A stretch of DNA of 6,219 bases from a virus (IMGVR_UViG_2778261347_000002:1-6219); one strand, 5' to 3'. Positions 2,826 through 3,189 are shown, numbered from the stretch's first letter. Notes: generated by a model from the letters alone, not told the origin. Made by a program: numbers and translations.

Positions 2826-3103
2826 TGGACTCCTTCGCGAAATATACGATTATTGACTGGATAGCATTCCTTCAGGTTTTGCTCATCTGGTTTTATATGG
2901 CTTACAGGAGTGGGCAGTGGATTGTCAGTGTAGCCTGTAGCAAGGGATGGCGTTGGTGGAACCGAAAGAATAAAAAAGCGCTGGCCTTGGATTCGTTTTA
3001 CGAAGCATTCAATCTTAACAGTCTTCAGCCTGGTTATGTCATTGTAGTCACCACTCAAAGCGGCATGACCATTCAGATTCATAAACCAAAAGAGGAAAAA
3101 TGA
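2825..3103 (+). CDS. small hydrophobic protein (92 aa), probable single-pass membrane protein
   Basis: ATG 2825 overlaps the upstream TGA (TGATG). GGAGG at 2813-2817. About 20 hydrophobic residues (YTIIDWIAFLQVLLIWFYMAY) followed by a basic stretch (RWWNRKNKK). Confidence 0.6.
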   Translation: MDSFAKYTIIDWIAFLQVLLIWFYMAYRSGQWIVSVACSKGWRWWNRKNKKALALDSFYEAFNLNSLQPGYVIVVTTQSGMTIQIHKPKEEK

Positions 3104-3189
3104 TGTGGCCTATATGTGTTAATTGCGGACGGATGTGCCTATCTGGATGGTGCCGAAAGTGCGACAAATGCACGAAGAAAAGACAATAA
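3103..3189 (+). CDS. 28-aa cysteine-rich micro-protein (MWPICVNCGRMCLSGWCRKCDKCTKKRQ), candidate zinc-binding peptide
   Basis: Not in the ORF track (below its size cutoff). ATG 3103 overlaps the upstream stop TGA 3101-3103. AGAGGA at 3090-3095 is 7 nt upstream. Six Cys in CxxC-type spacing. Stop TAA 3187-3189. Confidence 0.3.
   Translation: MWPICVNCGRMCLSGWCRKCDKCTKKRQ

What the first reader, a model, noticed from the sequence alone, without database searches (positions are those of the whole stretch)
3103..3189. Unannotated 28-aa cysteine-rich ORF coupled to the upstream gene
MWPICVNCGRMCLSGWCRKCDKCTKKRQ has six Cys in CxxC-type spacing and a basic tail. It starts on the stop codon of the preceding gene with a well-placed AGAGGA, so it is positioned for coupled translation. 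It is too short for the ORF track. Small zinc-binding peptides in phage early-left operons include anti-restriction and host-takeover factors (lambda Ral is a small Cys-containing example), but that functional link is speculation.
Basis: partly seen in the sequence, partly recalled or inferred. Interest (0 to 1): 0.45.

Follow-up and report, generated by a model that had tools for sequence, protein, structure and literature searches.

The report
Conserved tiny cysteine-rich phage gene
The 28-codon reading frame is a real, evolutionarily conserved phage gene for a probably metal-binding mini-protein that most genome annotations miss; what it does for the phage is still unknown.

Summary
Window 3103-3189 (+) encodes MWPICVNCGRMCLSGWCRKCDKCTKKRQ. 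Its ATG shares one base with the TGA stop of the upstream DUF4752 gene, and AGAGGA lies 6 nt upstream.

It is a genuine gene. Relatives with 64-82% amino-acid identity occur in lambdoid and P22-like prophages (two different genome regions), in virulent Salmonella/E. coli siphophages and in a 154-kb Citrobacter myophage. Synonymous sites are saturated while dN is 0.11-0.28, and only this frame is conserved.

In the 22 intact peptides aligned, the core is MWPIC-x2-CGR-x-C-x3-WC-x2-CDK, with five invariant Cys. The sixth Cys and the KKRQ tail are specific to the window's clade.

The gene sits behind at least seven unrelated upstream genes, almost always with a stop-start overlap or a 1-nt gap. 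It behaves as an optional mosaic cassette.

Only phage HK106 annotates it (gp30, hypothetical). There is no Pfam or PHROG family and no literature. The likely fold is a one-metal mini zinc ribbon (CX2CX8CX2C), but this is inferred, not shown. The Ral / anti-restriction link is unsupported. Moderately interesting: an uncharacterised microprotein family, not a new kind of system.

The parts
3103..3189 (+). Coding sequence of the 28-aa Cys-rich microprotein (MWPICVNCGRMCLSGWCRKCDKCTKKRQ). An alternative in-frame ATG at 3100 would give the 29-aa form annotated in HK106.
   Evidence: ORF. Homologues. Purifying selection and frame test. HK106_030 annotation.
3091..3096 (+). Shine-Dalgarno-like AGAGGA, 6 nt upstream of ATG 3103 (only 3 nt from ATG 3100)
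   Evidence: Sequence. Purine-rich GGAGG/GGGGG/GAGGA motifs sit at the same distance in all other contexts.
2825..3103 (+). Upstream DUF4752 gene. Its TGA stop (3101-3103) overlaps the start codon of the small ORF, making it the translational-coupling partner in this prophage.
   Evidence: Pfam DUF4752 E=1.4e-35; phrog_667; RefSeq annotation.
3191..3221 (+). First intrinsic-terminator-like hairpin (AATCCTCGCACTGACGGGGATT) followed by a T-run. It starts 2 nt after the ORF's stop codon.
   Evidence: Terminator scan; RNA fold z=-4.1 for 3186-3255.
3223..3250 (+). Second terminator-like hairpin (GAACTCGCTACGGCGAGTTT) followed by a T-run
   Evidence: The module also occurs without the small ORF in other E. 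coli prophages.

Best explanation
Window 3103-3189 is a genuine phage gene for a 28-aa cytosolic microprotein. It belongs to a family of 24-29 aa peptides with the core MWPIC-x2-CGR-x-C-x3-WC-x2-CDK.

How it most likely works:
1. Transcription (inferred from gene order): it is transcribed as part of the leftward (pL-type) early operon of a lambdoid Stx1 prophage. It lies upstream of two tandem terminators that antiterminated polymerase would read through.
2. Translation (shown at sequence and comparative level): ribosomes finishing the upstream gene restart at the overlapping TGATG junction, helped by a Shine-Dalgarno motif 6 nt upstream.
3. Folding (inferred): the peptide folds around one metal ion, most likely Zn2+. 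The ion is held by two CxxC knuckles (Cys5/Cys8 and Cys17/Cys20, spacing CX2CX8CX2C). The 8-residue hairpin between the knuckles carries the fifth invariant Cys12, Gly9, Arg10 and Trp16.
4. Function (speculative): this small basic, Trp-bearing knob binds a target conserved among enterobacteria, either a nucleic acid or a host protein. It acts as a dispensable accessory factor early in infection.

The gene behaves as an optional mosaic cassette that rides behind many unrelated genes in temperate and virulent enterobacterial phages.
For: Divergent homologues:
- tblastn finds 64-76% identical copies (E about 1e-5) in unrelated phage genera (Deseoctovirus, Skatevirus, Swiduovirus) and in the subfamily Stephanstirmvirinae.
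- Pattern scans of IMG/VR and metagenomes add nin-region and other prophage contexts. 22 distinct intact peptides were aligned.

Selection:
- Against divergent members, synonymous differences are saturated (Sd 8-15 on about 11 sites) while dN is 0.11-0.28.
- Mismatches concentrate at codon position 3 (8-14, against 2-7 at positions 1 and 2). Amino-acid identity in frame +1 (0.64-0.82) exceeds that of every other frame.

Unbiased Cys test:
- The scan anchored on the N-terminal half only added 10 hits to the 75 loci that match the full pattern.
- Five of the ten keep every Cys. The exceptions are singletons: C20R, C20Y, C12R, one frameshift and one recombinant truncation.

Invariant residues in the aligned set: M1 W2 P3 I4 C5 C8 G9 R10 C12 W16 C17 C20 D21 K22.

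Coupling:
- The upstream stop overlaps the ATG or lies 1 nt before it behind at least 7 different upstream genes: DUF4752, proteins ending AAPQQEVK, a DksA/TraR zinc-finger gene, phrog_7798, and genes in Tr1, L088 and L096.

Mosaic cassette:
- Other prophages have DUF4752 followed by an ASCH gene instead, or the terminator module without the ORF. Homology breakpoints fall at window positions about 3097 and 3184.

Fold:
- The single-sequence AlphaFold2 model has mean pLDDT 80.7, with beta-bridges and no helix.
- The only significant structural match is the HK106 homologue K7P872.
- All sub-threshold sequence and fold matches but one are zinc modules. The Pol III RPC2 Zn ribbon has identical CX2CX8CX2C spacing.

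RNA rival:
- The ORF RNA has no excess structure (z=-0.02).
Against: - There is no direct evidence of translation, metal binding or any phenotype.
- No family in Pfam, PHROGs or PADLOC reaches threshold, so the fold and function assignments rest on a Cys motif.
- Within the shallow E. coli clade (98 copies), distinct variants are 3 synonymous against 9 nonsynonymous once the H19J artefact is set aside. That is close to neutral expectation, although all core nonsynonymous variants are singletons.
- Two alternative four-Cys ligand sets are possible (5/8/17/20 or 5/8/12/17), and a fifth invariant Cys is unexplained.
- Deep homologues were found by amino-acid or degenerate-codon searches, which favours conserved residues.
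- The family is narrow: only Enterobacteriaceae phages, and 1 of 185,579 species-representative genomes.
Confidence: 0.6

Rival explanations
1. The peptide binds something other than a structural zinc. It could hold an Fe-S cluster or another redox-active metal site, or it could form Cys12-mediated disulfide or metal-bridged dimers. Its activity would then be redox or oligomerisation based.
For: There is an odd number (five) of invariant Cys. Weak Fer4_4 matches appear (E 3-6). One sub-threshold match is to a disulfide-rich cyclotide. The microproteome literature notes Cys at predicted dimer interfaces of microproteins (PMC11188072).
Against: The spacing CX2CX3CX4CX2C does not fit the ferredoxin motif CX2CX2CX3C. 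There is no signal peptide, so the peptide stays in the reducing cytoplasm. Nearly all other sub-threshold matches are Zn(Cys)4 modules.
Confidence: 0.12
2. The act of translating the ORF matters, not the peptide. It could be a Cys-codon-rich leader that modulates the terminator starting 2 nt after its stop codon, or that merely delivers ribosomes to downstream genes.
For: The stop codon at 3187-3189 abuts hairpin 1 at 3191, so a terminating ribosome would mask its 5' arm. In siphophages the ORF is also followed within 5-8 nt by a terminator hairpin. In nin-region copies the 3' end of the ORF carries the SD for the next gene, ninX.
Against: Non-Cys residues (W2, P3, I4, G9, R10, W16, D21, K22) are invariant while synonymous sites are saturated. 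No alternative antiterminator pairing is evident, and the ORF RNA is unstructured (z=-0.02). Downstream context differs between clades: terminator in some, overlapping next gene in others.
Confidence: 0.05
3. It is a Ral-like anti-restriction factor.
For: It is a small Cys-containing product of the pL operon of a lambdoid phage. Accessory early genes often counter host defences (general knowledge; review PMC11323111).
Against: hhalign of the family against lambda Ral gives probability 0.5%. There is no PHROG hit to a Ral family. The map position differs: xis-proximal ea region rather than N-proximal. The gene also sits in nin regions and in virulent phages.
Confidence: 0.05
4. It is a chance ORF or an annotation-irrelevant remnant. 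The real gene would be another frame over the same DNA (as annotated in mEp213_028 or Dewey_CDS0021), or the ORF would be a fragment of a larger zinc-finger gene.
For: Other records annotate other frames here. Frames +2 and -2 are mostly open across the family. Shallow-clade polymorphism looks near neutral.
Against: Frame +2 has its most variable position at its codon position 2, and its amino-acid identity is 0.33-0.57 against 0.64-0.82 for frame +1. The frame +2 ORF in the window (3116-3316) runs through both terminators into the next gene. A search of 1.84 billion representative proteins finds no larger protein carrying this motif.
Confidence: 0.04

Closest known systems
Escherichia phage HK106 gp30 (HK106_030; AFH20718.1 / YP_007151700.1; UniProt K7P872)
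   Same: It is the same gene. The sequence is 96.6% identical over 29 aa, with the same position after the DUF4752 homologue and the same predicted fold (TM 0.70).
   Different: It is annotated from the first ATG (29 aa). It is only labelled 'hypothetical protein', with no function, family or publication attached.
Mini zinc ribbons: two CxxC knuckles joined by a short beta-hairpin (Pfam Zn_ribbon_3 / zinc_ribbon_2 type, and the C-terminal Zn site of RNA polymerase III subunit RPC2, VCDKCGLMGYSGWCTTC)
   Same: The spacing CX2C-X8-CX2C is identical, with 'CG' after the first knuckle and 'GWC' before the second. The top sub-threshold hit in both sequence and fold searches is of this type.
   Different: No match reaches significance (E 0.8-3). 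The peptide is free-standing and only 24-29 aa. It has a fifth invariant Cys in the hairpin, where RPC2 has Gly. Metal binding is untested.
Retroviral-type CCHC zinc knuckle (Pfam zf-CCHC, CX2CX4HX4C)
   Same: It has a C-x2-C-G-(K/R) start, aromatic residues next to the ligands, basic character and a size of about 14-18 residues (comparison from established knowledge of the motif).
   Different: The spacing is CX2CX3CX4C, there is no His, and an extra CxxC is present. No Pfam zf-CCHC hit appears even at E<=10.
Phage Mu Com (62-aa zinc-finger translational activator), as a functional analogue only (from my own knowledge)
   Same: It is a very small phage-encoded Cys4 zinc protein that acts by binding a nucleic acid.
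   Different: No sequence relationship was tested or expected. Com is more than twice as long and has a defined RNA target; nothing comparable is known here.
Lambda Ral (restriction alleviation, 66 aa)
   Same: It is a small Cys-containing product of the pL operon.
   Different: There is no detectable similarity. The map position differs, as do the length and the Cys pattern.

Membership tests
HK106 gp30 family (K7P872) | Sequence identity over the whole peptide and the same genomic position after the DUF4752 gene | tested here: met
   96.6% identity over 29 aa. HK106_030 is annotated at the homologous place, overlapping the upstream stop. The exact window peptide falls in the same 90% cluster. 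Foldseek E=4.7e-4, TM 0.70.
Zinc ribbon (Pfam Zn_ribbon_3 / zinc_ribbon_2 type) | Two CxxC (CPxCG-like) knuckles separated by a short hairpin | tested here: met
   C5-x2-C8-G9 and C17-x2-C20 are invariant in 22 distinct peptides, 8 residues apart.
Zinc ribbon (Pfam Zn_ribbon_3 / zinc_ribbon_2 type) | Profile HMM score above the curated cut-off | tested here: not met
   Best results were Zn_ribbon_3 E=0.82 (1 of 22 members), C1-like_CT E=0.037 and Zn_ribbon_PRDM4 E=0.45. All are below cut-off.
Zinc ribbon (Pfam Zn_ribbon_3 / zinc_ribbon_2 type) | Binds one Zn2+ through four Cys | not testable with these tools
   This needs metal analysis of the peptide.
CCHC zinc knuckle (PF00098) | CX2CX4HX4C spacing with a His ligand | tested here: not met
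   The spacing is CX2CX3CX4C and there is no His at the ligand position. No zf-CCHC hit appears at E<=10.
Lambda Ral (restriction alleviation) | Sequence similarity to Ral and an N-proximal position in the pL operon | tested here: not met
   hhalign probability 0.5%. Ral lies next to N in lambda, whereas this ORF lies between the ea22-like genes and xis.
DUF1244 (label on TPA records DAF65670.1, DAI79631.1, DAM59351.1) | Match to the Pfam DUF1244 profile | tested here: not met
   DUF1244 does not appear among Pfam matches at E<=10, either for the window peptide or for any of 22 family members. The label itself was seen.
Transcription-attenuation leader peptide | Regulatory codons plus mutually exclusive terminator/antiterminator structures, with the peptide sequence itself unconstrained | tested here: not met
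   Non-Cys residues are invariant under saturated synonymous change. The ORF RNA is unstructured. nin-region copies have no downstream terminator.
4Fe-4S ferredoxin-type site (Fer4_4) | CX2CX2CX3C(P) motif and a profile match | tested here: not met
   The spacing differs. Fer4_4 gives E=3.1-5.7 and 8 bits against a 24-bit cut-off.

The most novel reading that the evidence does not exclude
This would be one of the smallest autonomous metal-binding domains known (a 22-residue core). It would be carried on a self-contained 'micro-cassette' consisting of an SD, a stop-start overlap and the ORF. The cassette has spread by recombination behind at least seven unrelated genes in temperate and virulent enterobacterial phages. 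Spread would be driven by its binding and neutralising or re-programming a conserved host machine, such as RNA polymerase, the ribosome or a defence protein. That would make it a previously unseen class of host-directed phage microprotein.
Probability: 0.15. Interest if true: 0.65.

Novelty: new member of a known kind. Interest (0 to 1): 0.4.

Why it matters
Phage genomes are full of very short genes that gene callers skip. This one is absent from RefSeq E. coli annotation, from Pfam and PHROGs, and in effect from a library of 1.84 billion protein representatives. Yet it is under clear purifying selection and is shared by temperate and virulent phages of E. coli, Salmonella, Citrobacter and Kluyvera. 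That makes it a well-defined, easy-to-synthesise candidate for the study of phage microproteins. It also shows that annotated 'intergenic' gaps and wrongly framed ORFs (mEp213_028, Dewey_CDS0021) hide real genes. It occurs in Stx-converting prophages of EHEC (O26:H11 strain 11368, H19), so any host-directed activity could bear on lysogen biology. Without a function, its importance stays moderate.

Tried and rejected
- The search for homologous proteins refuses queries under 40 aa. A concatenated two-member query found nothing.
- phmmer of a 30-aa form against 1.84 billion representatives gave one spurious repeat protein.
- The 90% cluster containing the peptide also holds TolC-like proteins of 473-480 aa. 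This is a clustering artefact.
- Pfam, PHROGs and PADLOC scans gave nothing significant for the peptide.
- PDB sequence searches and Foldseek against PDB and BFVD gave only sub-threshold, mostly zinc-module hits, apart from the HK106 homologue.
- Rfam found nothing in the region, and there is no tRNA in the window.
- Literature searches found nothing: peptide strings gave 0 papers and 'DUF4752' gave 0 papers. The peptide is not in the supplements of the Enterobacteriaceae microproteome preprint. The phage small-protein review does not mention zinc or Cys proteins.
- The C-terminal-anchored pattern scan gave a few unrelated 'WCxKCDK' matches in jumbo-phage proteins, judged chance or unrelated.
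- An obligate partnership with the neighbouring 'GKIPGV(K/R)IE' gene family was considered and rejected. That gene is present in only a subset of contexts.

Full report
**1. The observation**

The + strand of the window carries an ORF with ATG at 3103-3105 and TAA at 3187-3189. A second in-frame ATG lies at 3100-3102. The product is MWPICVNCGRMCLSGWCRKCDKCTKKRQ.

The preceding ORF stops at TGA 3101-3103, so its stop and the 3103 ATG share one base. That ORF is a DUF4752 protein at 2825-3103 (Pfam E=1.4e-35). AGAGGA sits at 3091-3096, which is 6 nt from ATG 3103 but only 3 nt from ATG 3100.

Among the 69 ORFs of 20-45 aa in the window, this is the outlier for cysteine (6 Cys, 3 CxxC). Only 7 of 500 shuffles of the window produce any ORF of that size with >=6 Cys and >=2 CxxC.

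**2. Where the window comes from**

The region is 100% identical to a prophage of E. coli E2865 and to Stx1a-converting phage Stx1a_11KH263. It is 99.8% identical to the 1999 H19J fragment.

The gene order on the + strand is: anti-RecBCD, DUF2737, ead/Ea22-like, DUF551, DUF4752, the small ORF, a 99-aa gene, a lambdap35-like gene, a TorI-type excisionase, and an integrase with an internal stop. Compared with lambda, this is the xis-proximal 'ea' part of the leftward early operon.

No sigma-70-like promoter is predicted between 2000 and 4200. Two hairpin-plus-T-run terminators follow the ORF at 3191-3221 and 3223-3250. The fold of 3186-3255 gives z=-4.1.

**3. Is it a gene?**

RefSeq E. coli genomes do not annotate it. 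A distant blastn finds the ORF in 184 of 5,426 complete genomes, always with only 'DUF4752 family protein' listed under the match. Most phage records also leave it out. Two records annotate other frames over the same DNA: mEp213_028 and Dewey_CDS0021. Only HK106 annotates this frame, as HK106_030, a 29-aa hypothetical protein.

*Divergent homologues.* tblastn of the peptide finds 64-76% identical copies (E about 1e-5 to 8e-3) in unrelated phages:
- Escherichia phage C1 (Deseoctovirus)
- Salmonella KFS-SE2 (Skatevirus)
- CF-SP1 (Swiduovirus)
- Citrobacter phage Tr1, 154 kb (Stephanstirmvirinae)

Phage Vi II-E1 has a decayed copy.

Degenerate-codon scans of IMG/VR, one of metagenomes and one of species-representative genomes (a single Kluyvera hit) add prophage copies. 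22 distinct intact peptides were aligned.

*Selection.* Against the divergent members, synonymous differences are saturated (Sd 8-15 on about 11 synonymous sites) while dN is 0.11-0.28. Mismatches pile up at codon position 3 (8-14, against 2-7 at positions 1 and 2). Amino-acid identity in frame +1 (0.64-0.82) is at or above nucleotide identity for most members (0.64-0.76) and above that of every other frame.

*Other frames.* Frames +2 and -2 are mostly open but are not conserved as protein.

*RNA structure.* The ORF RNA has no excess structure (z=-0.02).

*Unbiased Cys test.* I scanned with only the N-terminal half as anchor. This added ten hits to the 75 loci that match the full pattern. Five of the ten keep all Cys. 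The exceptions are single sequences with C20R, C20Y or C12R, one frameshift and one recombinant truncation.

I conclude that this frame is a protein-coding gene under purifying selection (about 0.9).

*Caveat.* Within the shallow E. coli clade (98 copies) there are only 3 synonymous and 9 nonsynonymous distinct variants, after removing three pseudo-variants caused by the 1-nt insertion in the H19J record. That ratio is near neutral. However, every nonsynonymous variant in the conserved core is a singleton, while synonymous and tail variants reach 3-33 copies.

**4. Anatomy of the family**

The alignment of 22 distinct intact peptides gives these invariant residues: M1 W2 P3 I4 C5 C8 G9 R10 C12 W16 C17 C20 D21 K22. 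Five cysteines are therefore family features. The sixth (C23) and the KKRQ tail belong only to the window's clade. Lengths are 24-29 aa.

All other clades begin MWPIC directly at the junction. This, together with the SD spacing, favours ATG 3103 over 3100.

**5. Context and expression logic**

The gene sits behind at least seven unrelated upstream genes:
- DUF4752
- several different proteins ending AAPQQEVK
- a DksA/TraR C4 zinc-finger gene in nin regions (PF01258, E=2.9e-10), where NinX (PF10765) follows
- phrog_7798 proteins in the virulent siphophages
- a 109-aa Tr1 protein
- a 213-aa protein in L088
- a 70-aa protein in L096

In nearly all of these the upstream stop overlaps the ATG (TGATG) or lies one base before it (TGAtATG). 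A GGAGG/GGGGG/GAGGA motif sits 5-9 nt upstream. The five exceptions include two loci with mutated junctions (L037, L057) and one (L027) with an apparently disrupted upstream gene. That is strong comparative support for termination-reinitiation coupling, although coupling itself has not been demonstrated.

Downstream context varies. It is tandem terminators here, a single terminator in siphophages, and an overlapping next gene in nin regions and Tr1.

In other E. coli prophages DUF4752 is followed by an ASCH gene instead, and the terminator module occurs without the ORF. Homology breakpoints fall at about 3097 and 3184. The ORF is therefore an optional mosaic cassette delimited by its own start and stop.

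**6. What the product probably is**

- No Pfam, PHROG or PADLOC family reaches threshold.
- A scan of 1.84 billion representative proteins finds no true relative and no larger protein carrying the motif.
- The exact peptide exists in NCBI only as HK106 gp30 and as three TPA metagenome records labelled 'DUF1244'. The Pfam scans do not support that label.
- A single-sequence AlphaFold2 model is fairly confident (mean pLDDT 80.7) and shows only beta-bridges.
- Its one significant structural neighbour is the HK106 homologue K7P872.
- All sub-threshold sequence and fold matches but one are zinc modules: the RPC2 Zn ribbon VCDKCGLMGYSGWCTTC with identical CX2CX8CX2C spacing, LIM domains, ribosomal zinc ribbons and HNH zinc fingers. 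The exception is a disulfide-rich cyclotide.

My best reading is that two CxxC knuckles (C5/C8 and C17/C20) hold one Zn2+ (about 0.65-0.7). The intervening hairpin would present C12, R10 and W16. An alternative ligand set (C5/C8/C12/C17, knuckle-like) or a non-zinc or bridging role for C12 cannot be excluded.

The peptide is basic and carries two invariant Trp. That fits nucleic-acid or protein docking, but this is inference only.

**7. Function**

Nothing here identifies a target. The gene lies in dispensable accessory regions: ea and nin regions of temperate phages, and a small accessory operon between lysis and head genes in virulent siphophages. It is optional among close relatives. The likeliest role is therefore an accessory, host-directed binding factor made early in infection.

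hhalign gives a probability of 0.5%, and the map position differs.

A leader-peptide or attenuator reading is attractive because the stop codon abuts terminator 1. It is contradicted by the invariant non-Cys residues and by clades that lack a downstream terminator.

**8. Novelty and verdict**

The gene is not new to the databases, since HK106 gp30 is on record. But it is uncharacterised and family-less, mis-framed or missing in almost all records, and absent from the literature searched.

It is best filed as a new, undescribed family within a known kind: tiny Cys-rich, probably zinc-binding phage accessory proteins.

Interest is moderate (0.4). The comparative case for a real, selected, translationally coupled microgene is strong, and the cassette-like spread across temperate and virulent phages is notable. 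There is no functional lead yet.

Noticed in passing
window 3191-3250: Two tandem hairpin-plus-T-run terminators (z=-4.1) lie right after the small ORF. The module is shared by roughly 2,400 E. coli genomes, independently of the ORF. In L046, L090 and L094 a hairpin-plus-T-run follows the ORF at the corresponding place with a different stem sequence; L046 shows two. This suggests selection for the structure.
   Followed up: partly
window 3261-3560: The downstream 99-aa gene (phrog_3680) has a sub-threshold ClpX-type C4 zinc finger (E=0.015). Its C-terminal motif GEIPGVRIE is shared with phrog_7798 proteins. Those proteins lie directly upstream of the small ORF in virulent siphophages and downstream of it in L046/L090. 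The neighbour recurs but is not obligate.
   Followed up: partly
window 4285-5475: The integrase gene is interrupted by an internal stop (ORFs 4258-4950 and 4984-5475). RefSeq marks it as a pseudogene in strain E2865, so this prophage may be unable to excise normally.
   Followed up: no
L004 1217-1456 (mEp213_028); L006 1224-1325 (Dewey_CDS0021); window 3116-3316 and 3123-3224: Two phage records annotate other reading frames across the same DNA. The frame test indicates these are mis-annotations of the small Cys-rich gene.
   Followed up: yes
L002 (AJ236875, phage H19J) around 2134-2214: The 1999 H19J record has a 1-nt insertion (ATGTTGGCC) that breaks the ORF. All modern identical prophages lack it, so it is probably a sequencing error.
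   Followed up: partly
L011 (Salmonella phage Vi II-E1) 1501-1587: This is a decayed copy of the gene (MLAAVFRHCFRMRLTSWCKKCDK: start region and three Cys lost). No upstream partner gene is annotated there, yet the downstream terminator is kept. It is an example of loss of the gene.
   Followed up: partly
protein cluster of the 29-aa peptide (P0002-P0007): In the 90%-identity clustering the peptide is grouped with unrelated TolC-like proteins of 473-480 aa. Three TPA metagenome records label the identical peptide 'DUF1244' without support from a Pfam scan. Both are database artefacts.
   Followed up: yes
window 2800-2830 and loci L090, L094, L046: The same junction sequence (...GCAGGAGGTGAAGTGATG, protein tail AAPQQEVK) ends several proteins, at least some of them non-homologous. 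It precedes either DUF4752 (in the window) or the small ORF (in L090/L094). It looks like a shared recombination linker between accessory-gene modules.
   Followed up: partly
L151 (lambda) 6872-6958, minus strand: Lambda's own annotated 'orf28' next to ral is an unrelated, extremely acidic 28-aa ORF (MEEEFEEFEEHPQDVMEQYQDYPYDYDY). It is not a homologue of the ORF studied here.
   Followed up: yes
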